In this document: positions 10,087 to 29,411 of the stretch, piece by piece
How positions within the stretch are numbered: the first letter of the stretch is position 1
Layout: each line of letters begins with the position of its first letter
IMG/VR virus record: IMGVR_UViG_3300020043_000777
Location: 1-31,169 of that record
Origin: a virus
Taxonomy: Duplodnaviria > Caudoviricetes
DNA: 31,169 nucleotides
Strand: one strand, 5' to 3'
Program-made: the position numbers and the translations under genes
The notes under the pieces: generated by a model
The model's database searches: none
What the model was told of the DNA's origin: nothing
What the model saw: the letters and a program-made list of their open reading frames with translations, nothing else

Positions 10087-11925
10087 ATGCTAAAAAAGTT
10101 GCAACTCCGTCCAGGCGTCAATAGAGAAAATACACGCTACACCACAGAGGGTGGCTGGTTTTCATGTGACAAGATACGTTTTAGATACGGTACTCCCGAG
10201 AAAATTGGCGGTTGGAATCAAGTATCTAACGTAAGTACGTTTGAGGGTACAGCACGTTCGCTGTGGCCGTGGTCATCTTTGCTGGGCATGGGTACGAACG
10301 AAAAGTTCTACATCATGTATGGCTCCAGTTACTTCGACATCACACCTATTCGTGACACGGTAACGCTGACAGATCCGTTCACAACAACCATTAATTCCAC
10401 GACAGTTACGGTGTCAGATGTCGCACATGGGGCGATCACTGGTGATTGGGTGACCTACTCCGGTGCTACTGCTGTAGGCGGGCTAACGCTCAACGGTGAA
10501 TACCAGATCACCGTGCTTACAATTGACAGCTACACCATCACTGCTTCCAGCCAAGCAAGCTCCACCGCCACAGGCGGCGGCACGGTCACTGCGGCGTACC
10601 AAGTCAACACAGGCCCCGCCATTCAAACGCCTTTGTCTGGGTGGGGCGCGGGGCCTTGGGGTAGTGGCGCGTGGGGTATTGGCAGTACATCGCTTGAGGG
10701 CCTGCGGGTGTGGAATCAGCAGAATTTCGGTGAAGATCTGATCTTCGGCCCCAAGGACGGGCCGATGTATTACTGGGACAACTCACTCGGTCTTACATCT
10801 CGCGGTGTCAACCTGACCTCACTGACCGGCGCGTCGGACGTCCCCACGGTGCAGGGCCTCATCATGGTCTCGGACTCTTCACGCTTTGTGCTGGCGTTTG
10901 GGTGTAACGACTACGGCACCGCTGACCAAAATTTGATGCTGATCCGCTGGTCGGACCAAGAAAGCGCGGTTAACTGGACCCCCGCAGCGACGAACCAAGC
11001 GGGTAGCCTGCAGCTTTCACACGGCTCAGAAATTGTTGGGGTTGCACAGGTTCGTCAGGAGATTCTGGTTTGGACAGACATCTCCCTGTACTCTTTGCAG
11101 TACCTTGGGCCTCCAATTGTGTGGGGTTCTCAGCTTCTGGCCGACAACGTATCGCTCATCAGCGACCGGGCCATGACCACCGCAGCAGGCGTGACCTACT
11201 GGATGGGTGAGGAGAAGTTTTACGCCTACGACGGTCGGGTGCAAACGCTTCCCTGTGATCTGCGGCAGTACATCTTCAGTGACTTCAATCTCAACCAAGC
11301 TGAGCAGGTCTTTGCTTCAACGGTAGAGCGGTTTAACGAGGTCTGGTGGTTCTATTGCTCGGCGGATAACAACACGGCTTCGCCTGACAAATACGTTGTG
11401 TACAACTACTTGGAGAAGATTTGGTACTACGGCACGATGGACCGCACCGCCTGGATCGATGCAAGCATCATCAGCGACTACCCCATTGCGGCCTACGGCG
11501 ATCAGCTTCTGTACCAAGAGTCTGGTGTGGATGACAACTCCACGGGCTCGGCAACGGCTATCGAGTCCTACATCACCTCGTCTGAGTTCGACATTGACGA
11601 CGGACACAACTTCTCGTTCGTCTGGCGGGTGCTGCCTGACATCACCTTCCGTGGCTCCACGGCCAACAATCCTAGCGCCACGCTAACGCTCCTGCCCCTG
11701 CAGAACTCGGGCTCGGGCTACAACAACCCCGCTTCGCTTGGTGGATCAGATGCTGGGACCATTGTCAGAAGTGCTGTCGTGCCCGTTGAGCAATTCACAG
11801 GTCAGGTCAATATCCGCGTGCGTGGTCGCCAGATGTCCATGAAGATTGCTTCAGACGGCGTAGGTGTTACGTGGCAGCTTGGTTCACCAAGAATTGATCT
11901 CAAGCCTGACGGCAGAAAGTCTTGA
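10087..11925 (+). CDS. Tail hub/nozzle protein (P22 gp10-like DNA stabilisation protein)
   Basis: LRPGVNRENT...W...DKIRFR.G.PEKIGGW N-terminus, NFGEDLI, IRWSDQE...W.P..TNQAG and EVWWFY motifs. Inserted small beta domain (HG...GD.VT.SG...LNGEYQIT) at ~10370-10610. Confidence 0.8.
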   Translation: MLKKLQLRPGVNRENTRYTTEGGWFSCDKIRFRYGTPEKIGGWNQVSNVSTFEGTARSLWPWSSLLGMGTNEKFYIMYGSSYFDITPIRDTVTLTDPFTTTINSTTVTVSDVAHGAITGDWVTYSGATAVGGLTLNGEYQITVLTIDSYTITASSQASSTATGGGTVTAAYQVNTGPAIQTPLSGWGAGPWGSGAWGIGSTSLEGLRVWNQQNFGEDLIFGPKDGPMYYWDNSLGLTSRGVNLTSLTGASDVPTVQGLIMVSDSSRFVLAFGCNDYGTADQNLMLIRWSDQESAVNWTPAATNQAGSLQLSHGSEIVGVAQVRQEILVWTDISLYSLQYLGPPIVWGSQLLADNVSLISDRAMTTAAGVTYWMGEEKFYAYDGRVQTLPCDLRQYIFSDFNLNQAEQVFASTVERFNEVWWFYCSADNNTASPDKYVVYNYLEKIWYYGTMDRTAWIDASIISDYPIAAYGDQLLYQESGVDDNSTGSATAIESYITSSEFDIDDGHNFSFVWRVLPDITFRGSTANNPSATLTLLPLQNSGSGYNNPASLGGSDAGTIVRSAVVPVEQFTGQVNIRVRGRQMSMKIASDGVGVTWQLGSPRIDLKPDGRKS

Positions 11926-14740: not shown

Positions 14741-17188
14741 ATGACTATTGGTGTTGACGACATTGATCAAGACATCCTGAAAACGTACCTTGATCAATAC
14801 AACGACGATCCAACAAGTTTTTCGTGGCAGAAAGTATTTGATGCCATCAAGAGTATGGGCGGCGCTGCTGCCAAATTTGCCACTTCTGGTCAGGGTATTG
14901 CAAGCCTAGGTGGTGCAGCACTAAACTATCTTGACCGCGCCAAACCTACAGGCGGCGGCACCAAAATGGCCTACCCAGGCGCTATGGATCTGTCCCGCAC
15001 AATGGTGCAGGGCAAGTACGGTCCTATCGCTGAGTACAAGTCTTCGTACTACACAGGCGCTCCAGACTATCGGGACTTTAAGTCACCAACGTTTCCTGGG
15101 TTGGTAGGCACGCCCGCCCCTGCGCCGGGGCCAGCCGCCCGAGAAAGGACTGTTGCATCTAAGATAGCTGAGTACAAAAATTTAGCGTCTTACGGCCTGT
15201 CCGATGAGCGCATCCGTCGTATTGCAGAGGTCATGTATGGCCCGCAGACGGATTCGGATTGGGCAGAACTCAAGCGTCTGTCGGGTGTAAGCACTGAAGG
15301 TGGGATTAAAACGCCTTCTCCGACTCCGGCACCTGCCCCAACACCAGCACCAGCACCTACCCCTGCGCCTACCCCTGCACCTACGCCAGCACCTACCCCT
15401 GCGCCTGCAAGCGCAGCTCGGGGGACTGCGGCAGAGCAATTTGCTAAATTAAATTTGCCAATGCCGGCAAATTGGGAAACTACAACAGATCCAATCCAGC
15501 GCATAAAAATTCTTACTGCGATGGGCGTGACATCTGACCAGCTAAAGTCTATTGGCTACTCGCCAGCAGATATTGCTTGGATGGAAGCGCGTGAGTTTGG
15601 TAAAAACGTGGGATTTGACGATCCAAACAAACCGCCTTCTGGGAACTTAATTGTTCCAACAGATGAATATAGTGTGCCTGTAAGTAGTGACAGAAGTTGG
15701 TATTGGAGTGAAGGAAAATGGAATCCAAATACAATTGGAGCTACTGTGGACCTTATGGAGTCCGGCACTAGGTCACAAGCTCAGACAGGCGAAGGACGAG
15801 CTTCTCGTGCAACTACAAGGCAGGCTGGGGCGGAGCAAGGTATTGCTTCTTTAGCACAAGAAGATCCTTTTGTGGCAGCTATTAAGCAAGCAGTAGCTAC
15901 ACCTCAAGCACAAACTCCAATTTACAAAGATCCAAAATCTGAGTCAACGCTGTCAGTTAAAAAAGATTATTTGGGTCAACCAATAGAATTTACTTTCGCT
16001 GACAAATACGGCAAATCAGAAACTGTTGGTGCATCCAACACAACGCCGATAAATGAACTTGCTCAAAAATATGGCATTGACTTAACTAGCGCATTTGGCG
16101 CTGGCACGTCAGCTACCGGGGGCGGGTTGCCTTGGTATGGGACGCAAAAAAACGCGGCTGATACTCAAAAATATGCAAACGTAGGTAGCTTCACCCCTGG
16201 AACGCCTCAGCAGATGGTGTACAGCCCAGAGGATAAAGGGCTTGTGTTTCAGCCTATTCAAACAGGACAAGATCTTGGAACGCAACTATCAGAGTTTGCG
16301 GCCAAACCATTTGCAGAGCTAGAGAAGACTCTGCAGCAATTCAAACAAACACCACCAAAAACACAAGAAGAGTTAGTTGCTGCCAATTCTGCTTGGTTGG
16401 ACTATCAAAATAGGTTTGCCAACAGTTCAGTTGCAACACAACCCGGCAGATACGATTCTAGTTTGAAGCCAATATCGATGTTGGCGCAAACTTATAACGA
16501 GTATGGGCCGCTAAATCAGGCAATGACGTCTCTTAGCCAGCAGGCATCTCAGGGTACGTCGCAAGCGTTAACGGGTTCCCCATTTGCAGGTGGTCAAGCG
16601 CAACAACTAAACCAAACAATTGCGGCACTTGGGGCCAACCCATTGGTACAGCAGACGTTAGACAAAATATCAGCCGTAGATCCAAGCGCAAAGTTTTCTA
16701 CAGATGATACAACACGGTTGGCTGGGCAAATACAAGAACTTGGGGCAGAAAATGCCATCTCTAATTTTATTAGAGACAAACAAAATTTGATTGGTTTTGG
16801 AACAAATAACTGGCAGTCTAGTTTAAATGTAAAAAATCCAACGTATGCGGCTTATCAGAATCTGCTCAATAATATTGGGGGACTGTACGCGCAACCGACA
16901 AAAGGGTTAGCCAATGGCGGCGCTGTTCAGATGGAAGACGGCGGCTTCGTGATGACCAAGCGTGCGGTGGACGGCGCTGGTGGCCCAAGGGGTATACAGC
17001 AACTGGTCCCAGGTGCGACAATGATCCGTGGCCCAGGCACTGGCACAAGCGACGACATCCCGGCAGTGATCAACGGCCGAAGCGGTAAGACCCCTGCCAG
17101 ACTCTCAAACGGTGAAGCCTATGTCCCTCCGGGGCGCAACACCAAAGGGCTCTACGCCCTGATGCACCAGCTTGAAAGGAAAGCGTGA
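14741..17188 (+). CDS. Putative internal virion protein with PAPT linkers and a tape-measure-type C-terminal module
   Basis: Pro/Ala/Thr linkers and C-terminal LANGG...GGFVMTK...GPGTGTSDDIPA...ARLSNGEAYV...LYALM. Confidence 0.65.
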   Translation: MTIGVDDIDQDILKTYLDQYNDDPTSFSWQKVFDAIKSMGGAAAKFATSGQGIASLGGAALNYLDRAKPTGGGTKMAYPGAMDLSRTMVQGKYGPIAEYKSSYYTGAPDYRDFKSPTFPGLVGTPAPAPGPAARERTVASKIAEYKNLASYGLSDERIRRIAEVMYGPQTDSDWAELKRLSGVSTEGGIKTPSPTPAPAPTPAPAPTPAPTPAPTPAPTPAPASAARGTAAEQFAKLNLPMPANWETTTDPIQRIKILTAMGVTSDQLKSIGYSPADIAWMEAREFGKNVGFDDPNKPPSGNLIVPTDEYSVPVSSDRSWYWSEGKWNPNTIGATVDLMESGTRSQAQTGEGRASRATTRQAGAEQGIASLAQEDPFVAAIKQAVATPQAQTPIYKDPKSESTLSVKKDYLGQPIEFTFADKYGKSETVGASNTTPINELAQKYGIDLTSAFGAGTSATGGGLPWYGTQKNAADTQKYANVGSFTPGTPQQMVYSPEDKGLVFQPIQTGQDLGTQLSEFAAKPFAELEKTLQQFKQTPPKTQEELVAANSAWLDYQNRFANSSVATQPGRYDSSLKPISMLAQTYNEYGPLNQAMTSLSQQASQGTSQALTGSPFAGGQAQQLNQTIAALGANPLVQQTLDKISAVDPSAKFSTDDTTRLAGQIQELGAENAISNFIRDKQNLIGFGTNNWQSSLNVKNPTYAAYQNLLNNIGGLYAQPTKGLANGGAVQMEDGGFVMTKRAVDGAGGPRGIQQLVPGATMIRGPGTGTSDDIPAVINGRSGKTPARLSNGEAYVPPGRNTKGLYALMHQLERKA
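15311..15409 (+). repeat. Imperfect 12-bp coding tandem repeat (PTPA linker)
   Basis: cctacccctgcg / cctacccctgca / cctacgccagca units encoding TPSPTPAPAPTPAPAPTPAPTPAPTPAPTPAPA. Confidence 0.9.
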
Positions 17189-19647
17189 TGACTTCTATTG
17201 CGGGCACGCCCGACCTCGATCCTTCTCAGTCCACGCTGAGCCCGAACTTCGCGCCTTACGTCTACAACTACTTGTCGATGGGTGAGGCTGCAGCTAAGCA
17301 GCCCTTCCAGCCTTTTACAGGTCAGCGCTTCGCAGAGCCTGGAAACCTGCAAAATTTAGCGTTTGCAGGTCTTGGGAGCCTTCAGCAGCCGAGCCAGTAC
17401 GGAACTGCCACAAACCTGTTTTCGGATGCAGGTACGCGGGCGATGGGCATGGGGTACACCCCCACGCAGTTTGGTAATTTTTACCAAGCTCCGGCGCAAT
17501 ATTCACCATCTGGCATGCCGTCTTACGGTCAAGTAGGTGCTCAAGGTATTGCGTCAACGTATCAAGCTCCTGACGCATTTCAGACCGGGCAATTTCAGAA
17601 TCGTTTCCAAGGACCGACGCCGTATCAAGCACAGACGGCTACGTCTGGATATCAACTTCCTTCGCCGTATCAGACGGGTAACTTTGCATCCAATTTTGGC
17701 TATCAAGCTGGTCCCGCGACACAGTTCCAGAATCAGTATCAGGCACCAAAAGACTATCAATCTGGTAGATTTTCTGCTGGTTTTCAAGCGCCATCTACAA
17801 CACCGACAACTGACTTCACAAGCCAATATCAAGCACCATCTTCCTACCAAGGCGCACAATTTGGCAATTTGTTTCGGGGTCCAGGTGCGTATCAATCCTC
17901 AGACATGACGCAGGGGATGTCGCCGCAGTCTTATGCTGCGGGACAATTTACACCGGGCTTTGACTATCAAGCACGGGAGATGCAAACAGGTCTTGGCCCG
18001 GTAAAGTCCATTCAAGATTACATGAGTCAGTACACGGGCGGTGTGTCTGACATTGCTGCTCGTGAAGCTACACGTCAGGCGGACATAAGCCGCACCGCAG
18101 AGCAGGCCCGTTTAGCTCAAGCAGGTGCGTTTGGTGGTTCTCGTCAAGCCATCATGGAGGCCGAACGTCAAAAAAATCTTGGTACGCAAATTGGAGATGT
18201 TCGAGCCAAGGGTCTGCAGGAAGCGTTTGATCGTGCTCAGCAGCAGCGCATGCAGGAGGCTGGTTTAGGTCTTCAAGCTCAACAAGCAACTGAGCAAGCA
18301 AGACAGTTTGGCGCAGAACGTGGTACTCAGTTTGGTCTCCAAGGTCAACAGATGGGGGAACAGTCGCGGCAGTTCGGTGCAGATTTCGGCCTCAAAGGAT
18401 TGAGTCAACTGCTTCAAGCACGTCAGGCATCTGAGGCATCTCGTCAGTTTGGTGCTCAGCAGGGCATGACTGCTGCACAAGCAGAGGCGCAATATGGATT
18501 GTCTGGACTGCAGGCTGGTGAAGCATCTCGACAATTTGGCGCTCAGCAAGATGCTCAATCGCGTCAACTCCAGGCCCAATTTGGGCTTTCTTCTCAGCAA
18601 GCTCGGGAGGCTGCACGCCAGTTCAATGCTGGTCAGTCTATGACTGCTGCTCAGCTTCAGTCGCAGTTTGGGTTGGATGCGCAAAAAGCAGAGGAGATGT
18701 CACGGCAATTTTCGTCCCAACAAGGGATGCAAGCGTCTCAACTTCAAGCGCAGTTTGGTTTGTCCGCACAGCAAGCTCAAGAGGCGGCGCGTCAATTTAA
18801 CGCGGGGCAAACGCTGACAGCAGAGCAGCTTCAGACGCAGTTTGGCCTCGACGCCCAGAAGGCGCAGGAGATGTCTCGCCAGTTTGGTGCTCAGCAAGCT
18901 ATGACAGGTGCGGAGACTGGCGCTCGACTGGGGCTTCAGGCGCAGCAGCAAACGGCTCAAGAACGGCAATTTGGGGCACAACAAGCCATGCAGGCTCAGC
19001 AGCTTCAGGCTCAGTTTGGTCTGAGTGCAGATCAGGCAGCAGAAGCATCTCGGCAGTTTGGCTCAGGTCAACGCATGACGGCGGCGCAGCTTCAAGCGCA
19101 GTTTGGTTTGGATGCCCAGAAGGCCAATCAGATGGCCCAGATGCAGGCGCAACAGTACAACCAGCAAGCAGCGTTGGAAGCGGCGCGGCAGGCTGAAGCG
19201 TCACGTCAGTATGGATATGGTCAGCAGATGACCGGGGCTCAGTTGGGTGCTCAATATGGTTTGCAAGGCGCACAGCAGACGGAAGCATCACGCCAGTTCG
19301 GTGCTCAGTATGGTATGGATGCGTTGCGCCAACAACTTGCCGCTGCTCAAGGGCTGTCTGGCGTGGGAACCGCTCAGTTTGGCACACAACTTCAAGGTCT
19401 TGAGTCACTGCTTCGCGCTGGTGGAGTGCAGCGTGACATCGCCCAGCAGCCGCTTGACTTTGGCTACCAGCAGTTCCAAGAGTCCCTGAAGTACCCGATG
19501 CAGCAAGCTCAGTTCATGCAGTCTTTGGCGCAAGGTTTGCCGCTACAGGCGCGGCCTTACAGCGAAGGCGACTCTGGGATTGGTTCTGCACTGCAGGGCG
19601 GGCTCTCCGGCTTGGCGCTGTACAAAGCACTTTTTCCGAACGGGTAA
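17185..19647 (+). CDS. Gln-rich DNA-transfer/pilot-type ejection protein with two repeat arrays
   Basis: Central DYMSQY...AGAFGGSRQAIMEAE core (AGAFGGSR at 18121-18144), C-terminal LDFGYQQFQE...YP.QQ and a hydrophobic end, flanked by the repeat arrays below. Confidence 0.7.
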   Translation: MMTSIAGTPDLDPSQSTLSPNFAPYVYNYLSMGEAAAKQPFQPFTGQRFAEPGNLQNLAFAGLGSLQQPSQYGTATNLFSDAGTRAMGMGYTPTQFGNFYQAPAQYSPSGMPSYGQVGAQGIASTYQAPDAFQTGQFQNRFQGPTPYQAQTATSGYQLPSPYQTGNFASNFGYQAGPATQFQNQYQAPKDYQSGRFSAGFQAPSTTPTTDFTSQYQAPSSYQGAQFGNLFRGPGAYQSSDMTQGMSPQSYAAGQFTPGFDYQAREMQTGLGPVKSIQDYMSQYTGGVSDIAAREATRQADISRTAEQARLAQAGAFGGSRQAIMEAERQKNLGTQIGDVRAKGLQEAFDRAQQQRMQEAGLGLQAQQATEQARQFGAERGTQFGLQGQQMGEQSRQFGADFGLKGLSQLLQARQASEASRQFGAQQGMTAAQAEAQYGLSGLQAGEASRQFGAQQDAQSRQLQAQFGLSSQQAREAARQFNAGQSMTAAQLQSQFGLDAQKAEEMSRQFSSQQGMQASQLQAQFGLSAQQAQEAARQFNAGQTLTAEQLQTQFGLDAQKAQEMSRQFGAQQAMTGAETGARLGLQAQQQTAQERQFGAQQAMQAQQLQAQFGLSADQAAEASRQFGSGQRMTAAQLQAQFGLDAQKANQMAQMQAQQYNQQAALEAARQAEASRQYGYGQQMTGAQLGAQYGLQGAQQTEASRQFGAQYGMDALRQQLAAAQGLSGVGTAQFGTQLQGLESLLRAGGVQRDIAQQPLDFGYQQFQESLKYPMQQAQFMQSLAQGLPLQARPYSEGDSGIGSALQGGLSGLALYKALFPNG
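17482..17991 (+). repeat. Coding array of ~15-aa [YF]QAP..YQ.G.F units (12 units: 14,12,15,15,15,14,15,15,15,15,14,11 aa)
   Basis: Units delimited by hand from the translation; total 170 aa = 510 nt. Confidence 0.85.
18292..19317 (+). repeat. Coding array of 29-aa EASRQFGAQQ..TAAQLQAQFGL units (22, 25, 8x29, 22, 29 aa plus a partial unit)
   Basis: Units delimited by hand; RQ[FY] recurs at exact 29-aa (87-nt) spacing through eight consecutive units. Confidence 0.9.
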
Positions 19648-19650
19648 AAA

Positions 19651-21714
19651 ATGATGCAACAAGGAATCCAATCGCTGATGCCGCAACAAGGCCCCCAGCA
19701 GGGCCCGATGCCCGGTCAGGCTCAACAAGCCCCGATGCCGGGGATGATGCCAAAGCCGGGAGCACCAACGCCCCAAGCTATGGTCGGCCCGCTGGCTCAG
19801 ATGCCGATGCAGCAGTTGGTTCAGCTTATGGCAAACCCTCGTCCAGATGGGCCTCCGTTGTACGCTGTGCTCACGGCGATCACTAAGAAGCAGGAGCAAG
19901 CTCAGGCGCAGGCGTCAGTGCAGCGCCAAATGGCTATGGCCCAAGGTCAGCAAGCAGCACAGCAGCCACCTATTGCACAGCAAGTAATGGCGCAAGCACA
20001 GCAATCTGAGCGTCAAAATCCTGAACAACAAATACGTCGTCGTATTTCAGACGCATTGGCGCAGGGCAAAACAGCCGAAGTAAGTGCGTTGTTAGATCAA
20101 CTTAAAGAGTTGGAGTTTGCCGAATTCACTCAGCAAAATCAAAAGCAAGAGCCGGGTTTTGCATACGGCGGCGAGATGCGTGGCTATGCGGGTGGCGGGG
20201 CGGTGGCGTTTGGACGCGGCGGTAATGTCCAATATTTTAACCAAGGCGCGGATGAGTTTGGGTTGATGGCTAATCCAGAAGCAGAAGCAATGGACGCGCT
20301 GCGTGTTGAGCGTGCGCAAAAGATGGAAGCGCTGCGTGTTGAGCGCGAGCAAAAAGAAAAGCAGCTAAAAGCACTAGAGGAAACTTATTACTCACTCATG
20401 ATGCAGAACGATCCTCGTGCTGCACAGGTCAAACAACAACTAGAAGCTCTTTCTAATCGCCCATCTGTTTCTGTGCGTCCAGCGCCTGCGCCTGCTATGT
20501 CGCCTGAAGCACAATCACTGGCAAATAGACAAGGCCCGCGTGGCACCGTGGCGGCAGAAAGATCTAGTGTCGCCCAACCTAGCGCAACAACGTTTGACAT
20601 CACCAATCCTGCATCTATAAACGCACTTCGGATTGCTGCACAAGATACTTCTTTGCCAGAAGCAGAGCGTGCGGCGTTGAGTCAACGTATTGTTATGATG
20701 GAAGGAAATCGACCTTCCCAATCCGGTGTGGTTTCTTTGGCAAAGCCGCAGGCAACGTTGACGCCGGAAGAAGAACAATATTTTGCCAACAAGGCTTCAA
20801 CTCTAAGAACGCGGCAAGGTGTACCCGAAGATGTTCTAGCGGGGCGGCAAGGAATTGCTTCTCTTGCGGCTGAGAACTTGGCCGCACAACGCGCAGAACG
20901 TGAACAGATGGCGCGTGAGGCAAAAGAACAACGTGATGCTGCTTTGGCAAGAGCACAGCGTGGAATTTTGGATGACCCGCAAGCACTGCTTGCCTTGGCT
21001 GGCGGCATTGATACCCGAAGAGGCAAAGGTCTTGGATCGCTGGCTCGCGGAGCGGCAGGCATCATGGGTGGTAAAGAAACCGCCGCTGAAGCCGCACGTA
21101 AAGAATATGCACTTTCCCAGCGCGATCAGCGGATGCTTCAAGCCAATGAGCGGCAAGCAAACATGCTTGAGATGCAGCGTCAGCAAGCTATCCGTGAGAA
21201 CAATGTACCCCGCGTATCTCAGATTGAGGATCAACTTGCAGCGCTTGAGATGCAGAAGTCACAGCTCTTGCGGTCGCGTCAGGAGCATGCTGAGAAAATT
21301 GGGCTTGAAGAGCGCAAAGTTGGCGCTATGGAATCAGAAGCCACTGCAAAGTTAGGGCGTCCAACAGAGATTGATTTCTTCCGCCAAGATCCTGAAGGCT
21401 ACGGAAGATTTCAAGCCGCTCGTCGGGGGCCTCAAACGGCGGGGGAGCGGCAAGATCTTGCTGAACTAAAGACGCTGCAAGGTAATCTTCAAAAGCAAGT
21501 TGAAAATTACATCCTTCCCAAGCCGCAGAGGGATGCCGCTGCCGTACAACTTCAGCAAGTTAACGCAAGGTTGGCGCAAATGGCTGGGATTGATGGCGCA
21601 CCAATGCCTACTGGTGGCGTGGTAACTCCTAAGTCTCAAGCGGAATTTAATGCGCTGCCCAAGGGAGCGCGTTACATTAACCCAGCGGACGGCAAAGAGT
21701 ACACAAAGAACTGA
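19651..21714 (+). CDS. Coiled-coil-rich putative internal virion (ejection) protein
   Basis: Q/P-rich N-terminus, tandem FAYGG/YAGGG/FGRGG motifs, long A/E/Q/R helices, a Gly-rich hydrophobic segment (ALLALAGG...GLGSLARGAAGIMG) and a small C-terminal domain. Confidence 0.65.
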   Translation: MMQQGIQSLMPQQGPQQGPMPGQAQQAPMPGMMPKPGAPTPQAMVGPLAQMPMQQLVQLMANPRPDGPPLYAVLTAITKKQEQAQAQASVQRQMAMAQGQQAAQQPPIAQQVMAQAQQSERQNPEQQIRRRISDALAQGKTAEVSALLDQLKELEFAEFTQQNQKQEPGFAYGGEMRGYAGGGAVAFGRGGNVQYFNQGADEFGLMANPEAEAMDALRVERAQKMEALRVEREQKEKQLKALEETYYSLMMQNDPRAAQVKQQLEALSNRPSVSVRPAPAPAMSPEAQSLANRQGPRGTVAAERSSVAQPSATTFDITNPASINALRIAAQDTSLPEAERAALSQRIVMMEGNRPSQSGVVSLAKPQATLTPEEEQYFANKASTLRTRQGVPEDVLAGRQGIASLAAENLAAQRAEREQMAREAKEQRDAALARAQRGILDDPQALLALAGGIDTRRGKGLGSLARGAAGIMGGKETAAEAARKEYALSQRDQRMLQANERQANMLEMQRQQAIRENNVPRVSQIEDQLAALEMQKSQLLRSRQEHAEKIGLEERKVGAMESEATAKLGRPTEIDFFRQDPEGYGRFQAARRGPQTAGERQDLAELKTLQGNLQKQVENYILPKPQRDAAAVQLQQVNARLAQMAGIDGAPMPTGGVVTPKSQAEFNALPKGARYINPADGKEYTKN
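20290..20355 (+). repeat. 33-bp in-frame tandem duplication (MDALRVERAQK / MEALRVEREQK)
   Basis: atggacgcgctgcgtgttgagcgtgcgcaaaag followed by atggaagcgctgcgtgttgagcgcgagcaaaaa. Confidence 0.9.
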
Positions 21715-21716
21715 TC

Positions 21717-24700
21717 ATGGCACTGGACTTCTCAAAATTTGGCACTCCGGTAGAGCAAACTTCTGCTCTGGATTTTTCAAAGTTTGGGACTCCAGTCCAG
21801 CCGCCTGAAAAGGAGAGCGCCTTCCGTCAGATTGCAGACGTACCGCTGGGCATAGCCAAGGGCGCGGTCCAAGGCGTTCGCATGATCGCGGACGCTTTCG
21901 GTGCTGGGTCTGACACATCCAAGACCATTAAATCTGCTGAGACATACCTTGCAGATTTGATGTCTGCCCAGGCCAAGAACGACCAGCAAGAGATCTCACG
22001 CATCATGAAGGATGCGGAGGACAAAGGCGTGCTGGATCAGGTTAAGGCTGGTATCAAGGCTTTTTCAGTTGCGCCTATTGACACTCTTAGTAGTGCGTTA
22101 GGCACTGCTGCACCCGTCATAGCTGGCGCGCTGGGTGCCAAAATTCTTGGTGCTGGTGCGCTTGTAAGCACTGGTGTTTCAGCACTGACTGGCGCTGGCA
22201 TGGGCGCTGGTGTGGTCAAGGGTTCCATCTACGAGGAAACCAAGAAAGCACTGAAGGACGCTGGTGCTTCTGAGCAGGACGCTGAGACTCGGGCAGAACT
22301 TGCCCAACAGTACAACGGTAAGAACCTTGACCAAATTTTGTTGGGCACTGTGCTGGGTGGTGCTGCTGCTGTCGGCCCGTTGGAAAAGGGCGGCGCGGCA
22401 ATATTGGCACGCAGGATTCTTGGCAAGACTGGTACGGAAGCGACAGAGACCGTAGCAGAGCAAGCAGCAAAGGGTGCGGTTCGTCGCCGCCTAGAAGCCG
22501 GTGCGCTGGAAGCTGTGCCTGAAGCCATCCAGGCAGGGCAAGAGCAAGTAGCGCAGAACATCGCTTTGCAGCGGGAAGGGTTTGATGTACCTACGTTCCG
22601 TGGTGCGGTTAGTGCTGCCACGCTGGAAGGTATTGCTGGCGGTGGACTTGGTGCTGCGGTTGGTGGTGGTAAGCCTGCCGTTGCCCCCGAGGCTGAGCCT
22701 GCTCCACCTGTAGCCCCTCCACCTGAAGCGCCCGAAGCAGAACTGGAACAACTGACTCCGCAGCAGAAGCAAGAGCTTGAGCGTCAACGCGCATTACGTG
22801 AGCGCCCGCAGACTACGGAAGAACTGTTGGCCGGTATTACTCCCGCGCCGACCACAACTCCGCTGGACGTGGCGCGTATTCGCGATGAGCATGAAACGGC
22901 AGTGATTGAAGGGCTACTGGCTCAAGATGCAGAGATGAAGCTGGCAAATGACTTTGCCCGCAGACAACTGGAGCTTGAGAGCGAGGCAGAAGCTACTGCT
23001 GGTGGGATCTCTGACGTAGACACTAGAGTCCGCGAAGGCCGCATCTTCTCCCGCGTGCAGGATCTGATTGACCGCAACATCCCGTATGCCAGCACGGCCA
23101 TCAATGACATCAACCAAAAATTTGGTGTCATCAAAGAAGCCCCGCTGACTGAGGATGAGCGGGCTCGTGTAGAAAACATCATGGGCATGGTGAGCACGTT
23201 CACTAATTTTGTGAACCTGCCTGTGCTTGCGCCAAAACTTGTGGACCCGTTTGCTGAGAACCAGCAGATGGAAGCCCTTATCAGAGAAAGGACAGAGAGT
23301 GGACAAGCCCAGCCCGTACGAACAGCGCCTGCTGCGCCAAGCCCGAGCGTCCAAGAAACTCCCGTCAGCCAAGGAGTTGGCGAAGGTCCAGCCGTACGAC
23401 CGACGAGTGGCGTTGAGCCTAGCGTTGCGGAAGATAGTGAACTCGTAACTCCGCCTGCCGCTGTTGAGACGCCTGCGCCTACTGCCCCCTCTGCGCCTGA
23501 TCGGGCACAAGTTCAAAGCACACTCAACACGCTTGAAGACGGCGACACCATCGTCACAGATGACGGTGATCGCGTTGTTGTCTCAAAAGTTATCCGCAAC
23601 AAGAATGGCGATGTAACAGCTATCGTCACGCCAAAAATTGACGAGGAAGGCTTTACAGGTATTGACTTTGATGGTCTGGCGTCTTTTGTTACGCCACAGC
23701 CATACATGGACAGCACCACTGGTGAGCGTAAATTTACGAGCCCAGCAACGATTGAGAAAGCTGCTGCGCCTGCGGTACCGGCACCTGCGGCACAGGAATC
23801 TGCTGTAGAACCAGCAGCTCCGACAGCAAAAACGCCCAGCGAACGGCAGGAGCGCATTGCTTTTGGCAAGGCTATCAGCGCAGCACAACCGTATCCAGGC
23901 TCACTGCGGGGCCGTGTAAATCTTCCTGCTCAGAAGGCTGCGAAGGAAGGCAACTTCCAAGGCGTATTGTCTGCTTTGGAAAAGAGCAAGAACGTCATCG
24001 TTGCTGAGATTGCCAAGCGGGCAAAATCTCTGGGCACCAAAATTGTCATTGATAGCAATGCAGAGGAGACGTATACAGGGCCAAGCACCCTTATGCGGCA
24101 AATGTCCATCGATGGCGCAAAGATGCACCTTGATGCGTTAGAAAAGATCCGCGCACTTGCACCACAAGTAGATGCGCTGCCAGATAAAGCAGAGCTTAGC
24201 TACGCCATTCGCGGCGAAACAATTAACGCTATTGACAACGGTGAGTCTGCTGGGCGCATGGGCTTGGAAGATATTGCCAGGATGGGGCACAGCATGTTTG
24301 CTCCTCTGTCTATTGGCGAAAGCAAACTTAGAACAAAGGAAGACTTCAAAAGACTGCAGAAGGCGTATGAAGATCTCACTTCAGAATATGGAGAGAACGC
24401 ACTTCAACTGACATCTACTGGGTCGGCAGAGATGCGTGGTGTTGCGGGAGCTTACGATGCAGACACAGATACCATCCGTGTTCCTGAATACACCGCAAAG
24501 CGCGAAGAAGTTCTCTCACATGAGATTGTTCATGCGCAGACAGTTCAATCCATCGCCAATCCAACTCTGCGGCAAAAGCCTATTGTTGCTAGGTTGAACA
24601 AACTTTACGAGCACGTAAAGAAAGAACTGGAAGGCAGACCTGGGCGTGCTCCGTATGGCATTCAAAGCATTCAGGAGTTTGTTGCTGAAGGCATGGGCAA

Positions 24701-27700
24701 CCCTGTGTTTCAGTTCCTGTTGAAGAAGATCAAGTACGAGAACACTTCTGCTTGGGACTCGTTTGTCCAGACGATTGCAAACTTGATTGGTGTAAAGCGG
24801 GACACAGCTTTTACAGAGTTGCTGTCTATCTACAGCGATCTGACCACGGAACAGAAGGCTGCAGCACCCACTGTAGAAGCCGCTGCGCCCAAAGCAGAAG
24901 CGCCCCCTACTCTAGACACTTCAGGCGTCACACCGGCCAAAGGCCGTCATCCGCAAGTCCAAGCGGCAGCAAAACTTCTTCAAGAAAAGAAGATGTCTCG
25001 GGAGGAGTTTGAGAAGTACGTTGACGCCTATAAACCGATTGAAACTATTAAAGCGGAAACACTTTATCCGCCGTCATCTGTTGAAAGCATGGCCAAAGCC
25101 ATTCGTGGTGCAGAAAACAAAAGAAAAATTAATATACCGATTGCGGATGGCACACGAGTTGGTTTGCGTATGGATCTGCCTGCCCGTGACCAGGGCGTGC
25201 CAGTCGTATCAATTCATGAAGGCAAGCCGAACGACGATCCAAAAACTGGGAAGCCTTACAAGAGTTCAGGAAAAGTTATTGGGTATGGCAGCACTGGTTA
25301 TTTGAAAGATGTCTTCTTCGCCCCGCGTGATCAAGAGAAAAGTTTGGTCATGGGCATTGAGCCCATCAAAGAACCTTTGCAAACGGCAGAAGGTACGTGG
25401 TTCAACCTGAGCCCAGAGGAAACCTACGCCCGCGTCAAGGAGTTGATGAAAGACCCGGCCTGGAAGCAGATCGGTTTTGATCCTTCTCGGCATGGGTACT
25501 TCTACGACAGGAAGACAACTCAGCCTGTCGTCTCTGCTTCAGAGATGTACCAAGTGGGCCAGTTCCTCTTGGCTAAGGATGTCGAGTACGCGCCTAAAGA
25601 GAACTACTTGTACTCCCTTGGCGGTGAGCGTGCGCAAGTACAAGCCTTTGAGCAGACCCTACGCAGTCTCCTGAACAAGTTTGGCCTGAAGGATGTGGGC
25701 CTGAAGATTCTGGATGGGATGACTGATTCCGGCTCCTATGCCGCGCAACTGATCCGTATTGCCGCTGATGCCGCGAACCCCGTTCGGACATTGAGGCACG
25801 AGGCTATCCACGCCCTGCGAGAACTGGGCTTCTTCACTGATGCGCAGTGGAGTTCTCTGTCCAAGATGGCAAAGGACAAGTGGATTGACCAGTACCTCAA
25901 GCAAAGGAACGTAGACGGCAAACCCCTGAAGGCAGGGGAAGAATCCCGGTATGACGCTTACATGCGTGAGTACAACGGGGACATGGAGAAGATTACCGAA
26001 GAAGCGGTGGGCGATGCTTTTGCTGACTTCGATGCCACGAAGCCGCCCGCTGGGATGCTTCAGGCTTTGCTTAAGCGGATGAAGGACTTGTTCCAGTCCA
26101 TCAAATCTGCGCTTACGAAGGTTGAATCACCTGAGCAAATCTTTGGCAAGGTTGAGAAGGGCGAACTGAAGGAAGGCGCACGCGAGGCTAAGGGCGAAGC
26201 AAAGAGCCTGCGTGACAGGGCTACCGCTAACTTTAAGCGCTGGTTTGGTGACAGCAAAGTAGTGGATGAGAAGGGTGAGCCGCTGGTGGTGTACCACGGC
26301 GGACCGTCTGGTATCACTGCGTTTGATGCCAGCAGACAAGACGTCACGGCGAGCTATGGTCCTGGGTTTTATTTCACCACCTCGGCAAACAGGGCAAAGA
26401 GCATGTACGCGCTTGGCCCAAAATCTGAGGTTTATCCCGTTTACTTGTCTATTCAAAATCCGGCAACGCTTGATCAAGCCAGAAAACTTAAGTTTGATCG
26501 CAAGGCAATGGAGGCCGCTGGATTTGATGGCATAGCGATTGAACGAGAAGGCGACACAGAGTACGTTGCTTTCAAATCCACCCAGATTAAATCTGCTACG
26601 CAAAACAACGGAGACTACAGCCTTACAAATGCTGACATCCGTAAGAGCCTGGGCGGGCGCAACCCCGGAGAGCAGGCTATCTCCATCGTTAACTCTCTTG
26701 GCATGGGCGTGAAGCCGCCTGAGCCTGGGCGTGCTGAGAAGGCGATGAAGATCCTGAAGGACGCAGGAGAGAACCCGTCCCTTACAAAGGAGTCAGCCAA
26801 GAAGACTCTGACCAAGTGGTTGGACTGGTTTGAGACTACTGTGTTCTCAAGCGACTCTGCGTTCAACAACAAAATTAGGCGCGGCATCATCAGTGACTTC
26901 AAGCAGAACCCTGAAGTTTTGGGCATGCTGCTTGAGGCTAGCCAGTCTCAGACTGTTCACGCTGACGCGCTTGCCAGCCAGTTCATGATTGACGGCGGGC
27001 TGCAGTACAACGAAGAACTGAAGAAGTGGGAATCCGTCAAGAAGGAAGATAACTTTGTCGCTTTGGCTAAGAAGATTGAAGACCTAGCCACGAAGTACAA
27101 CGTGACGAAGGACGAGATGGAGCGTATTGCTCACACGTACTTCGTAGCCAAGCGACTGCCGGGGATCATCAAGCGCAACGAAGAGTTGGACGCTGAGATC
27201 AAGGCCGAGCGTGCCACGGCCAAGCCCGACCGCAAGCAGATTGAAGAGTGGGAATCCCTGAAGGTTTTCGTCTCTGATGAGCAACTTGCGATGATGGAGC
27301 CGGGGCTGTCTCTGGTGAAGACCATTCCTGAACTCAAGGAAGTGGTAGACATCTGGCAAGGCATCCGCAAGAACAACATTGACGTGATGGTCAACAGCGG
27401 CCTGTGGTCGCCCGAGTACGCAACTGCCATGTGGGACAACATGGACTACGTTCCGTACTACCGCGAGGAGCAGCTTGAGGAAGGCGCAGGCCCGCAAGAA
27501 TTTATCCGTGGTCTTCAGGTCAAGTCCAAGGAGTTCCAACTGAAGGGCTCCGGTGCGGCGGTGAATGATGTCTTTGACAACATGATCCGCTGGAGTCAGT
27601 ACGCCATGAACCGGGCGATACGGGCGCACAAGGCCACGCAGATGATTGACGCGGCGCTGAAGATTGAGGTTGACGGCAAGCCGATGGCGACCAAGGTCAC

Positions 27701-29411
27701 GGAGCAAAAGCGCGGCATGAACATCGTGCGTGCGTTCCGAGATGGCAAGCAAGAGTTGTACGACATGGCTGACCCCCTGTTCGTACCGGCTTTCTCGTCT
27801 ATCCAGAACGTCTCCATTCCTACCTTGACTTTCATGTCCAAGGTATCGAACGTGCTGCGACAGTCAGTGGTTCTGTACCCGCTGTTCTCTGTTGCCCAGG
27901 TTCCTCAGGATTCCTTCGCGGCGATGTTCTCGTCTGGTCTGAAGACGCAGCATGCTTTGAAGATTCCATTCCTTGCGGTGAAGGAGTTTATTAAGACTCT
28001 TTCCAAGACAAGCCAGACACACAACGAACTGACCAAGTATGGCGTTGTGGGGGTGCGAGATTTCTCCGCGACGATTATCCGCAATGACGCTGAAATCTAT
28101 GCCGGATTGAAGCCTCCCAAAGGTGGATGGGGCAAGACCAAGGAGTTCATGGAGCACATTGCCATGTCTGCCGATAACGCCGTGCGTCAAGCGGTGTATG
28201 AGGCATCCATGCAGCAAGGACTGAACAAGTCTGAGGCTCTTGAGAAGGCGTTTGAGATCATCAACTTCCGCCGCCGTGGCACGAGCAAGATGCTGAACGT
28301 GATGGGCCAAACCGTCCCGTTCTTCTATGCTTACCTCTCCGCTCAGAGAGTTGCTTATCGTGTTCTGTCTGGGGTGGGTATCTCTCCGTCAGAACGCAAG
28401 GAAGCACTGACTACCCTAGCCACTACATCTGCTGCCGTGGCGGCGTTGTCCATGCTCTACGCGATGGCGAACGGGGATGATGAGGACTACGCAGAAACCC
28501 CTGCTGCTATCCGTGACCGGACGCTGACCATTCCCGGATCTGGTGGTGTGCGGATTCCGCTGCGGCCTGACTTCTTCCTCTTCCCAAAAATTGTCGCTGA
28601 GCACACGTACCTGATACTCAGTGACAAGGGGTATGAGGACGGCGCTAAGTTTAGGAAGTCAATGGCTGATGCGCTTCTCAGCGCGGTTGCCAGCCCGACA
28701 CCGTTCCCCACGGCTATCAAGCCCGCCATCGAGGTAGCCATCAACTACGACTTCTTTCAGGGTAAACCCTTGATCGGAACCTTTGAGAAGCAGAAGGAAA
28801 TCGAGCGACAATTCCGGGATTCGACTTCAGAGTTGGCGAAGATACTTTCCAACGTGCCGTTGTCCTACAGTTTGGAAAAAGGCAAGTTTGAAGGGCTTTC
28901 ACCTATCGCCATAGATCACATGATCCGTGGCATGCTGGGTTCGTTCGGTGGTTTGGTTCTGTTTGGAACGAATCAGTTCCTGCACTCTGATCCTGACGTT
29001 TCAAGACCGGAGATGTCAGCGAACGAGATGCTTGCAGCGCTGCCGGGTACATCTGGCCTGCTTAAGCGTCCTCAAGAATCAGCCCTGAAGAACGACTTCT
29101 TCGTGCTTCGCGATGCAGTAGAGAAAGCGGCCAACACCTTCAACGACATCAAGACCCGTAGCCCCGAGGGGATTCAAGCGTTCTTGGAAGACGAGAAGAA
29201 CGCCATCCGTCTAGGCATGGCTAAGGGTGTTGACAAAATTAACAGGCACTTGTCAGACATCCGTAGAAGGATGACCATCATCACGAACATGCCTGAGAGC
29301 CAGATGCCTGCCGATGAGAAAGCAGAAAACATCCGGGAACTGAGGGAACTTGAGCGTGAAATTTTGCGCTCAGTGAACGTCAAGGAACTGCGGGAGATGG
29401 CGAAGATTTAA
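21717..29411 (+). CDS. Large polyvalent virion protein, 2564 aa: membrane-inserting N-terminus, two zincin metallopeptidases, ADP-ribosyltransferase, LPD38-like C-terminus
   Basis: HEIVH at 24519-24533 with downstream QEFVAE; HEAIH at 25797-25811 with EEAVGD; ART signature at 26229-26650; LPD38-like motifs (P.IE...NYDFF.GKP.I, STSELAK, SPIAIDHMIRG..GS.G) at ~28476-28980. Confidence 0.85.
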   Translation: MALDFSKFGTPVEQTSALDFSKFGTPVQPPEKESAFRQIADVPLGIAKGAVQGVRMIADAFGAGSDTSKTIKSAETYLADLMSAQAKNDQQEISRIMKDAEDKGVLDQVKAGIKAFSVAPIDTLSSALGTAAPVIAGALGAKILGAGALVSTGVSALTGAGMGAGVVKGSIYEETKKALKDAGASEQDAETRAELAQQYNGKNLDQILLGTVLGGAAAVGPLEKGGAAILARRILGKTGTEATETVAEQAAKGAVRRRLEAGALEAVPEAIQAGQEQVAQNIALQREGFDVPTFRGAVSAATLEGIAGGGLGAAVGGGKPAVAPEAEPAPPVAPPPEAPEAELEQLTPQQKQELERQRALRERPQTTEELLAGITPAPTTTPLDVARIRDEHETAVIEGLLAQDAEMKLANDFARRQLELESEAEATAGGISDVDTRVREGRIFSRVQDLIDRNIPYASTAINDINQKFGVIKEAPLTEDERARVENIMGMVSTFTNFVNLPVLAPKLVDPFAENQQMEALIRERTESGQAQPVRTAPAAPSPSVQETPVSQGVGEGPAVRPTSGVEPSVAEDSELVTPPAAVETPAPTAPSAPDRAQVQSTLNTLEDGDTIVTDDGDRVVVSKVIRNKNGDVTAIVTPKIDEEGFTGIDFDGLASFVTPQPYMDSTTGERKFTSPATIEKAAAPAVPAPAAQESAVEPAAPTAKTPSERQERIAFGKAISAAQPYPGSLRGRVNLPAQKAAKEGNFQGVLSALEKSKNVIVAEIAKRAKSLGTKIVIDSNAEETYTGPSTLMRQMSIDGAKMHLDALEKIRALAPQVDALPDKAELSYAIRGETINAIDNGESAGRMGLEDIARMGHSMFAPLSIGESKLRTKEDFKRLQKAYEDLTSEYGENALQLTSTGSAEMRGVAGAYDADTDTIRVPEYTAKREEVLSHEIVHAQTVQSIANPTLRQKPIVARLNKLYEHVKKELEGRPGRAPYGIQSIQEFVAEGMGNPVFQFLLKKIKYENTSAWDSFVQTIANLIGVKRDTAFTELLSIYSDLTTEQKAAAPTVEAAAPKAEAPPTLDTSGVTPAKGRHPQVQAAAKLLQEKKMSREEFEKYVDAYKPIETIKAETLYPPSSVESMAKAIRGAENKRKINIPIADGTRVGLRMDLPARDQGVPVVSIHEGKPNDDPKTGKPYKSSGKVIGYGSTGYLKDVFFAPRDQEKSLVMGIEPIKEPLQTAEGTWFNLSPEETYARVKELMKDPAWKQIGFDPSRHGYFYDRKTTQPVVSASEMYQVGQFLLAKDVEYAPKENYLYSLGGERAQVQAFEQTLRSLLNKFGLKDVGLKILDGMTDSGSYAAQLIRIAADAANPVRTLRHEAIHALRELGFFTDAQWSSLSKMAKDKWIDQYLKQRNVDGKPLKAGEESRYDAYMREYNGDMEKITEEAVGDAFADFDATKPPAGMLQALLKRMKDLFQSIKSALTKVESPEQIFGKVEKGELKEGAREAKGEAKSLRDRATANFKRWFGDSKVVDEKGEPLVVYHGGPSGITAFDASRQDVTASYGPGFYFTTSANRAKSMYALGPKSEVYPVYLSIQNPATLDQARKLKFDRKAMEAAGFDGIAIEREGDTEYVAFKSTQIKSATQNNGDYSLTNADIRKSLGGRNPGEQAISIVNSLGMGVKPPEPGRAEKAMKILKDAGENPSLTKESAKKTLTKWLDWFETTVFSSDSAFNNKIRRGIISDFKQNPEVLGMLLEASQSQTVHADALASQFMIDGGLQYNEELKKWESVKKEDNFVALAKKIEDLATKYNVTKDEMERIAHTYFVAKRLPGIIKRNEELDAEIKAERATAKPDRKQIEEWESLKVFVSDEQLAMMEPGLSLVKTIPELKEVVDIWQGIRKNNIDVMVNSGLWSPEYATAMWDNMDYVPYYREEQLEEGAGPQEFIRGLQVKSKEFQLKGSGAAVNDVFDNMIRWSQYAMNRAIRAHKATQMIDAALKIEVDGKPMATKVTEQKRGMNIVRAFRDGKQELYDMADPLFVPAFSSIQNVSIPTLTFMSKVSNVLRQSVVLYPLFSVAQVPQDSFAAMFSSGLKTQHALKIPFLAVKEFIKTLSKTSQTHNELTKYGVVGVRDFSATIIRNDAEIYAGLKPPKGGWGKTKEFMEHIAMSADNAVRQAVYEASMQQGLNKSEALEKAFEIINFRRRGTSKMLNVMGQTVPFFYAYLSAQRVAYRVLSGVGISPSERKEALTTLATTSAAVAALSMLYAMANGDDEDYAETPAAIRDRTLTIPGSGGVRIPLRPDFFLFPKIVAEHTYLILSDKGYEDGAKFRKSMADALLSAVASPTPFPTAIKPAIEVAINYDFFQGKPLIGTFEKQKEIERQFRDSTSELAKILSNVPLSYSLEKGKFEGLSPIAIDHMIRGMLGSFGGLVLFGTNQFLHSDPDVSRPEMSANEMLAALPGTSGLLKRPQESALKNDFFVLRDAVEKAANTFNDIKTRSPEGIQAFLEDEKNAIRLGMAKGVDKINRHLSDIRRRMTIITNMPESQMPADEKAENIRELRELEREILRSVNVKELREMAKI
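26229..26650 (+). other. ART-PolyVal-type ADP-ribosyltransferase domain within the giant protein
   Basis: NFKRWFGDSKVVD..GEPLVVYHG...G.GFYFT...A..YA...VYPVYL.I.NP...GFDGI...EYVAF...QIKSA..N.G; H1527, Y1552 and E1615. Confidence 0.88.

What the first reader, a model, noticed from the sequence alone, without database searches (positions are those of the whole stretch)
17482..19317. Mirror-ordered 15-aa and 29-aa repeat arrays: a candidate hairpin ruler for a trans-envelope DNA conduit
Seen: moving outward from the central AGAFGGSR core, the N-arm units are 11, 14, eight of ~15, 12, 14 aa and the C-arm units are 22, 25, eight of 29, 22, 29 aa. The two arms have the same count, irregular units at mirror positions and a ~1:2 length ratio, although their sequences are unrelated. 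Known: 29 helical residues span ~43.5 A, about the same as 15 extended Pro-containing residues; 11/18/29 periodicities typify near-straight helical bundles, and the phiX174 H pilot forms a Gln-lined helical tube. Inference: the extended arm packs antiparallel on the helical arm unit for unit, so the two distant arrays must expand together, setting the length (~50 nm for 330 helical residues) of an ejected tube.
Basis: partly seen in the sequence, partly recalled or inferred. Interest (0 to 1): 0.8.

Follow-up and report, generated by a model that had tools for sequence, protein, structure and literature searches.

The report
Extendable fold-back stalk of phage injector
A protein of a freshwater short-tailed phage, likely one of those injected ahead of its DNA, has two unrelated repeat arms that lengthen and shorten together in mirror order across hundreds of relatives, which suggests a fold-back stalk whose length, predicted to run from about 17 to 70 nm, would set how far the phage can reach to its host's membrane.

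Summary
The 820-aa gene (17185-19647) lies in a podovirus ejection-gene block. Around the AGAFGGSR core, 12 C-arm intervals (22, 25, 7x29, 33, 18, 29) pair in mirror order with 12 N-arm intervals (11, 14, seven of 14-15, 17, 9, 15); 0 of 1000 unit shuffles score as well. Arm lengths co-vary in 228 homologues (contrast r 0.85; 0.98, slope 1.92, after 9 named exclusions). A sister clade with helix-type N arms keeps 1:1 (112 proteins); a third clade uses 12:18. Slope therefore follows arm geometry, as a hairpin predicts. Coupling is not absolute: 3 of 23 changed sister pairs and cultured phage CRP-902 differ in one arm only. Short relatives match phrog_4287, as does the LUZ24 twin (99.4%) of Pa223 gp56, a proposed outer-membrane channel. 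I favour a tube extending the nozzle to the outer membrane over a trans-envelope tube: the arms have no membrane segment and the next gene does not scale. Contacts, oligomer and lumen are not shown. Precedents: gp14-type hairpins; antigen I/II stalks. The scan noted this before on other genomes. Verdict: new variant of a known kind.

The parts
17185..19647 (+). 820-aa putative first ejection protein (phrog_4287-related, gp14/gp56 position)
17218..17388 (+). conserved N-terminal block (aa 12-68), inferred to pair with the C-terminal block
   Evidence: helices predicted in a relative
17455..17991 (+). N arm (aa 91-269): 12 Tyr/Phe/Pro/Gln/Thr-rich intervals, mostly 15 aa, inferred extended chain
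17992..18252 (+). conserved core (aa 270-356): helix, AGAFGGSR turn (18121-18144), helix; inferred hairpin tip
18301..19302 (+). C arm repeats (aa 373-706): 12 intervals, mostly 29 aa, helix-type; about 50 nm if fully helical
19381..19554 (+). conserved C-terminal block (aa 733-790)
19573..19635 (+). Gly-rich, moderately hydrophobic C-terminal segment (aa 797-817), the best membrane-anchor candidate
   Evidence: 19-residue hydropathy 1.04; next-best region 0.59
10087..11925 (+). context: tail nozzle/hub homologue (612 aa)
19651..21714 (+). context: 687-aa gene in the position of the periplasmic-tunnel protein (position only; no family hit)
21717..29411 (+). context: 2564-aa polyvalent protein (ART-PolyVal, LPD38) in the position of the largest ejection protein

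Best explanation
This is likely the first-ejected channel protein of a podovirus, and its two repeat arms, which co-vary in length and match unit for unit in mirror order, are predicted to fold back on each other as one long hairpin that would, in a ring of several copies, extend the tail nozzle down to the host's outer membrane. Shown: gene position, family link through short relatives, mirror order, and coupled lengths with three clade-specific ratios (15:29, 1:1, 12:18). Inferred: the C arm is a near-straight helix (29 residues = 8 turns) and the N arm an extended chain (2.9 A per residue) lying on the helix's Gly/Ala/Ser face. The AGAFGGSR turn would sit in the nozzle and both termini at the membrane, as for T7 gp14 and Ar-KM gp41. 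Two hydrophobic stripes would join neighbouring copies around a polar Gln/Arg/Glu/Lys face. Paired units then set stalk length, from about 17 nm (shortest relatives) to about 70 nm (this protein), likely across LPS, capsule or S-layer. Odds: hairpin pairing about 0.9; hollow tube about 0.65; stalk outside the outer membrane, given a tube, about 0.75.
For: Coupling: 228 of 241 proteins measurable, Spearman 0.93. Independent contrasts on a tree of the conserved blocks only: r 0.85 for all 228; r 0.98, slope 1.92, after dropping 7 N-arm domain insertions and 2 helix-type proteins; 20 of 23 changed sister pairs are coupled. Locus set: 33 length classes, r 0.998, slope 1.92, with different repeat sequences. 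Gly/Ala-rich, Pro-poor N arms: 112 of 120 measurable, 15 classes from 34/39 to 284/284, slope 0.985; contrast slope 0.97, 5 of 5 changed sister pairs coupled. CRP-901 clade: 12:18 steps, 8 of 9 on the line. Order: held-out mirror model beats parallel in 66 of 67 proteins. One freshwater contig has +45 aa and +87 aa (3x15, 3x29) at mirror sites relative to the window. Helical wheel of 172 distinct 29-mers: one half small residues (p 0.003), hydrophobic stripes at about 77 and 215 degrees. Identity: short relatives hit phrog_4287 'DNA ejection protein' (E to 3e-12); so does LUZ24 gp53 (2e-10), which is 99.4% identical to Pa223 gp56, a virion protein proposed as outer-membrane channel. Nozzle homologue upstream. 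Location: no membrane-like segment in the arms; next gene's length does not follow arm length (rho 0.18, p 0.15, n 69); gp14 and gp41 are ejected hairpins with the turn in the nozzle.
Against: One-arm changes exist: P0156, P0029, P0091 and cultured Roseobacter phage CRP-902, which is one N unit short of a near-identical contig and shares its host strain with CRP-901. These are either tolerated mismatches or assembly errors. Seven relatives carry 8-330 extra N-arm residues with no C-arm match. AlphaFold2 models of two relatives are weak (pLDDT 62 and 52, pTM 0.33 and 0.29); the N arm is under 50 and part of the repeat C arm (286-325 of P0022) is mostly not drawn as helix. The Gln moment is not significant (p 0.14). 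The window protein itself does not hit phrog_4287. The link to T7 gp14 or P22 gp7 rests on position and analogy only. The host is unknown, so no match between length and envelope was tested.
Confidence: 0.55

Rival explanations
1. The same hairpin forms the whole trans-envelope conduit: the stalk passes the outer membrane and periplasm, and its termini anchor in the inner membrane, or it crosses a thick wall in a one-membrane host.
For: 50-70 nm is ample. phiX174 H is a 170 A Gln-lined wall-spanning tube with hendecads. The C arm is 26% Gln. Binned contigs include Actinomycetota as well as Burkholderiales, but such bins are unreliable.
Against: No hydrophobic belt in the arms for crossing a membrane midway. 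A tunnel-sized gene follows and keeps its size whatever the arm length. The cultured homologue Pa223 gp56 is assigned to the outer membrane and gp54 to the periplasm. The shortest members (about 17 nm) are common.
Confidence: 0.17
2. The hairpins form a solid rod or needle, not a lumen: the small-residue face packs in a tight core, the aromatic N arms fill the grooves, and the polar face is solvent-exposed. It would act as a spacer, probe or zipper that pulls the terminal segments into the membrane.
For: Half of the helix surface is Gly/Ala/Ser. Antigen I/II adhesins build a non-hollow helix-plus-extended-chain stalk over 50 nm long.
Against: In the helix-type clade both arms carry Gly at 3.5-3.6 periods, which suggests that the small face meets the partner arm. 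Two hydrophobic stripes about 138 degrees apart fit a ring of roughly 8-9 (rough estimate). Positional analogues are hollow hexamers, and a nonamer channel was modelled for gp56.
Confidence: 0.18
3. The coupling reflects packing inside the capsid or shared ancestry and recombination rather than an ejected ruler; length is close to neutral as long as the arms match.
For: CRP-901 and CRP-902 differ in arm length yet were isolated on the same host strain. Close relatives differ by 1-4 units. A nested cassette swap could change both arms in one event.
Against: Ancestry alone does not give contrast r 0.98 or three geometry-matched slopes. This rival keeps the hairpin and only drops host-tuned length.
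Confidence: 0.1

Closest known systems
phrog_4287 'DNA ejection protein'; Bruynoghevirus Pa223 gp56 / LUZ24 gp53 (313 aa); also HTVC023P gp81, Caulobacter RW gp065c, Ochrobactrum OH p40, CRP-901 gp33
   Same: Shared profile hit, core motif and C block, position ahead of a mid-sized and a large gene.
   Different: The cultured Pseudomonas member is short and has no repeat arms. Its channel role rests on mass spectrometry, synteny and an AlphaFold3 nonamer. No length coupling appeared in the passages and section that I read.
T7 gp14 and Ar-KM gp41 (outer-membrane complex proteins); P22 gp7
   Same: First ejection gene. After ejection, two antiparallel helices with the turn in the nozzle and both termini pointing out. 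In T7, loops of gp6.7 lie in the clefts between gp14 copies.
   Different: No sequence homology shown here (Atlas lead to P22_gp7 only 0.89). The class is described as 181-240 aa, varying by under 30%. Here the arm sum runs from 35 to about 600 residues.
Streptococcal antigen I/II (SpaP) A-region / V-domain / P-region stalk
   Same: Two unrelated repeat arrays, one helical and one extended, fold back around a central domain into a stalk over 50 nm; region lengths 279 and 124 aa.
   Different: Unrelated cell-wall adhesin. Order is reversed (helix first), the partner uses PxxP pockets, and there is no lumen. Here the N arm has only 9% Pro and can be replaced by a helix in a sister clade.
phiX174 H pilot tube
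   Same: Gln-rich helix with 11-residue periodicity that carries DNA.
   Different: A decameric helical tube of a ssDNA phage, 170 A long; no extended partner arm appears in the passages read; no homology found.

Membership tests
phrog_4287 / Pa223 gp56-type ejection proteins | profile match | tested here: met
   9 of 11 homologues hit at E under 0.01 (P0158 2e-11, P0152 3e-12); 6 of 6 candidate phage genes hit. The 820-aa protein itself does not hit and is linked through its core.
phrog_4287 / Pa223 gp56-type ejection proteins | gene after the nozzle, ahead of a mid-sized and a large virion gene | tested here: met
phrog_4287 / Pa223 gp56-type ejection proteins | present in the virion and ejected | not testable with these tools
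   virion presence shown for gp56 by mass spectrometry; uncultured phage here
T7 gp14 / P22 gp7 outer-membrane channel class | sequence or fold homology | tested here: inconclusive
   no Pfam or PDB sequence hit; Atlas lead 0.89; fold searches ran on weak models
T7 gp14 / P22 gp7 outer-membrane channel class | antiparallel hairpin with the turn mid-sequence | tested here: inconclusive
   helix-turn-long helix predicted and mirror coupling, but no coordinates or contacts were available
T7 gp14 / P22 gp7 outer-membrane channel class | size about 180-240 aa | tested here: not met
   820 aa; the shortest measured relatives are about 255-280 aa
T7 gp14 / P22 gp7 outer-membrane channel class | several predicted membrane helices | tested here: inconclusive
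   a simple hydropathy scan finds one moderate segment, aa 799-817; no dedicated predictor was run
T7 gp14 / P22 gp7 outer-membrane channel class | oligomeric pore activity | not testable with these tools
   needs bilayer or cryo-EM work
Antigen I/II adhesins | A-V-P order, signal peptide, LPXTG anchor, family homology | tested here: not met
   extended arm comes first, phage gene, no Pfam or NCBIfam hit; it works like the stalk but is not a member
phiX174 H pilot | Gln/Asn/Arg stripe facing a lumen | tested here: inconclusive
   five adjacent wheel positions are 51-100% Gln/Asn/Arg, but the Gln/Asn moment has p 0.14

The most novel reading that the evidence does not exclude
A very large podovirus family carries its own tail-length ruler in the ejected state: a hollow, fold-back tail extension built from interchangeable paired modules (strand-on-helix 15:29, helix-on-helix 7:7, mixed 12:18), tunable from about 17 to 70 nm to clear capsule, O-antigen or S-layer, and so a host-range determinant separate from tail fibres.
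Probability: 0.38. Interest if true: 0.82.

Novelty: new variant of a known kind. Interest (0 to 1): 0.66.

Why it matters
The gp14-type channel protein is described as the most size-conserved ejection protein. This family breaks that rule in a strictly geometric way and gives a direct handle on an open question: how short-tailed phages bridge the gap between tail tip and membrane on hosts with thick surface layers. The family is large (4069 clusters for one subfamily core) and has cultured members, so paired versus unpaired unit changes can be tested. The paired modules are also a ready design for rods or tubes of set length.

Tried and rejected
Complex prediction of three C-arm pieces (519-712) with three N-arm pieces (91-186): no verdict, median 0.31 against a mark of 0.32, controls 0.00, no contacts given; not counted either way. 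Fold searches gave nothing usable: Foldseek no match at E 0.001 or better, VIA-align best Z 6.4 and 6.5, generic long helices. Sequence searches of solved structures: 0 hits for the protein, one chance-level hit for the family profile. The A2 profile did not score LUZ24 gp53 as a whole; the link rests. Mirrored divergence along the arms as a general sign of nested recombination: 1 of 3 classes significant, pairs not independent, so left as a lead. BLAST did not show that the 687-aa neighbour is homologous to the C-terminal fusion of P0102. Host assignment from 28 genome loci was rejected: nearly all are metagenome bins, many on short contigs; the two named isolates hold only distant relatives. 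Small-share sequencing runs were not used. An assembly artefact of the window was rejected (and L002 with 211/394 arms). Literature: ten full-text searches listed no paper on coupled repeat arms in ejection proteins; subscription papers are mostly outside the library. The all-representatives profile search was not run, so the family's full size is open.

Full report
Setting. The window is a 31,169-nt virus record, estimated half complete. Its plus strand holds two SU10-type adaptor genes, tail fibres, a lysozyme, a 612-aa gene and a block of 455, 815, 820, 687 and 2564 aa. The 612-aa protein matches a 513-aa chain of entry 9NWI (E 6e-10) and the 'nozzle gp16' of 8ZKK (E 2e-5). Pa223_059, which the Pa223 preprint calls the tail hub, is also 513 aa. 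The last gene has ART-PolyVal and LPD38 domains. This is the layout of a podovirus tail followed by ejection genes. Near-identical DNA occurs in lake and freshwater metagenomes.

The observation. It is confirmed, with small changes of segmentation. The N arm is rich in Gln, Gly, Ala, Thr, Pro, Ser, Tyr and Phe; the C arm has 26% Gln, 20% Ala and no Pro.

Test 1, do the arms co-vary? Two searches with the core returned the best 120 of 668 and the best 120 of 979 hits. I measured the distance from a conserved N block to the core and from the core to a conserved C block. Of 241 proteins, 11 lacked the N block and 2 failed the edge check; 228 remained, Spearman 0.93. On a tree built from the conserved blocks only, contrasts gave r 0.85. 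Dropping 7 proteins with extra sequence in the N arm gave 0.96; also dropping 2 with helix-type N arms gave 0.98, slope 1.92. Of 64 sister pairs, 41 were unchanged and 23 changed; 20 of the 23 changed in both arms, mostly by 15/29, 30/58 or 60/116. A second set came from loci (80 of 541 viral matches, 28 genome loci, and 7 others). It had 114 core hits, 99 measurable, 96 passing. The 45 long, non-Gly/Ala arms fall in 33 classes with r 0.998 and slope 1.92. This set includes the window itself and a few proteins shared with the first set, but also different repeat sequences (L066, L074). Short-arm loci scatter more (for example L012 34/14, L096 43/25).

Test 2, does the slope follow geometry? 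A search with the core of P0113 (best 120 of 4069) gave a clade whose N arms are Gly/Ala/Gln-rich and Pro-poor. There 112 of 120 were measurable, in 15 classes from 34/39 to 284/284, slope 0.985; contrasts r above 0.999, slope 0.97. The clade of Roseobacter phage CRP-901 uses 12-residue N units with 18-residue C units; 9 of 17 loci were measurable and 8 lie on the line. If the C arm is a helix at 1.5 A per residue (textbook value), the N arm rises 2.9, 1.5 and about 2.2 A per residue in the three clades: an extended chain, a helix, and a mixed chain. Only side-by-side pairing explains this simply.

Test 3, mirror or parallel? A pairing model was trained on some clusters and scored on others (109 proteins with C arm 78 or more, 17 named proteins excluded, 21 clusters). 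Held-out score per residue was 0.53 in mirror order and 0.12 in parallel order. Mirror won in 66 of 67 long proteins, beat the mean of 8 unit shuffles in 67 of 67 and all 8 in 59 of 67. Unit types are inherited across clusters, so this shows conserved order, not independent origin of each pair. In the alignment, the window has 11 and 44-45 extra N residues and 22, 29 and 58 extra C residues against its closest relatives. One contig of run X4 has 135 and 261 extra bases at residues 165-175 and 542-609, which are mirror sites. Its inner 1103 bases differ at 28 places, its outer pieces at 67 of 300 and 85 of 512. That pattern suggests a swap of a nested cassette, which would change both arms at once; a wider test was mixed.

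Results against. P0156, P0029 and P0091 have one arm a unit or two off. CRP-902 has 92/165 where a near-identical contig has 104/165 and CRP-901 has 92/147; both phages were isolated on Roseobacter FZCC0083. So small mismatches are tolerated, or short repeats collapsed in assembly. Seven relatives have unmatched N-arm inserts; six end in FADGG 10-19 residues before the core, a motif absent from the other 221 N arms. I read these as looped-out cargo, which is an inference. AlphaFold2 was run on two relatives, not on the window protein. Both models show helix, turn at GAYGG, long helix, but confidence is low and the N arm is under pLDDT 50. No coordinates were available, so the anti-diagonal could not be checked.

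Identity. Short relatives hit phrog_4287, 'DNA ejection protein'. The same family is hit by genes of HTVC023P, Caulobacter RW, Ochrobactrum OH, DSL-LC04, CRP-901 and LUZ24 gp53. LUZ24 gp53 is 99.4% identical to Pa223_056, and its C block aligns to the family profile (E 6e-5, probability 66%). The Pa223 preprint (10.1101/2025.06.11.659172; passages and section 10 read) finds gp56 in virions and proposes it as the outer-membrane channel, with a modelled nonamer; its supplements were closed and may bear on the membrane segments. For T7, PMC11784390 (passages) shows ejected gp14 as two antiparallel helices, six copies in the nozzle. For Ar-KM, 10.64898/2026.05.18.726046 (passages and section 12) shows gp41 as a hairpin with both termini pointing out of the nozzle and predicted membrane helices at the ends. 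PMC8954989 (passages, Table 1) gives the class as 181-240 aa and mentions an extra-cellular channel in P22. PMC13434306 (passages) gives the N4 equivalents. No sequence link to gp14 or P22 gp7 was shown here.

Mechanism. On a 29/8 helical wheel of 172 distinct units, positions from about 260 to 50 degrees are mostly Gly, Ala or Ser (p 0.003). Positions at 99-149 degrees are Gln, Arg, Glu or Lys, flanked by two stripes of large hydrophobic residues about 138 degrees apart. I infer that the N arm covers the small face, the stripes join neighbours, and the polar face lines a lumen of a ring of roughly 8-9; the ring size is a rough geometric estimate and a solid rod is not excluded. The arms have no membrane-like segment, so both membrane contacts must lie at the termini end. 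The following gene stays at about 430-780 aa in most loci whatever the arm length. By analogy with gp14 and gp41, the variable stalk then lies between nozzle and outer membrane. Lengths: 50 nm for the repeats, 69 nm for the whole C helix, 16.5 nm for the shortest relative modelled.

Comparison and novelty. A helix and an extended chain from unrelated repeat arrays already form the stalk of antigen I/II adhesins (PMC7732690 and PMC6934801, passages; the original 2010 paper was not held and is known only through them). phiX174 H supplies the Gln-lined tube (PMC7354561, passages). PMC10386132 and PMC11288001 (passages) and PMC10149686 (listing; no passage matched) added nothing on this protein. 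Ten searches listed no paper on coupled arms in ejection proteins. The scan itself noted the same thing in at least five other genomes; my tests up to one search were done before that look-up, and those notes are not counted as support. Verdict: a real, well-supported hairpin coupling in a known class of protein, with function inferred. New variant of a known kind, interest 0.66.

Noticed in passing
window 14741-17188 (aa 723) and 19651-21714 (aa 170-191); P0066, P0073-75, P0077, P0083: A short xAxGG motif (FADGG, FAYGG, YAGGG, LANGG) recurs in ejection-block proteins: at the end of 6 of 7 N-arm inserts, near 24 of 65 long N-terminal extensions and 71 of 108 long C-terminal extensions. It may be a cleavage or packaging signal; no control for chance was run at the junctions.
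   Followed up: partly
window 15425-15610 (aa 229-290 of the 815-aa ORF): A ~55-aa domain after a Pro-Thr-Pro-Ala linker is homologous to the repeated domain inserted in the N arm of P0077 (E 4e-10), so cargo domains move between neighbouring ejection genes.
   Followed up: partly
P0102, P0106, P0113 clade; P0020, P0027, P0041: The hairpin protein is often fused to several hundred residues at either end; several N-terminal fusions carry the GPGxGxSD domain also seen at the end of the window's 815-aa ORF. Homology of the C-terminal fusion to the 687-aa neighbour was not shown.
   Followed up: partly
L006:7749-8888: The Ochrobactrum phage OH member carries a C-terminal extension and is annotated as tail fibre domain protein; related hits are labelled peptidase S74 or endosialidase chaperone, which may hint at a different oligomer in that branch.
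   Followed up: no
window 953-1465: An endonuclease VII/HNH-like gene sits between the two SU10-type adaptor genes.
   Followed up: no
window 29408-30244 (-): PAPS-reductase-like gene on the opposite strand.
   Followed up: no
L064, L072, L073, L108 (arms 61/115): A further repeat type with a highly charged C arm and a Gly/Phe-rich N arm stays close to the 1.9 line.
   Followed up: no
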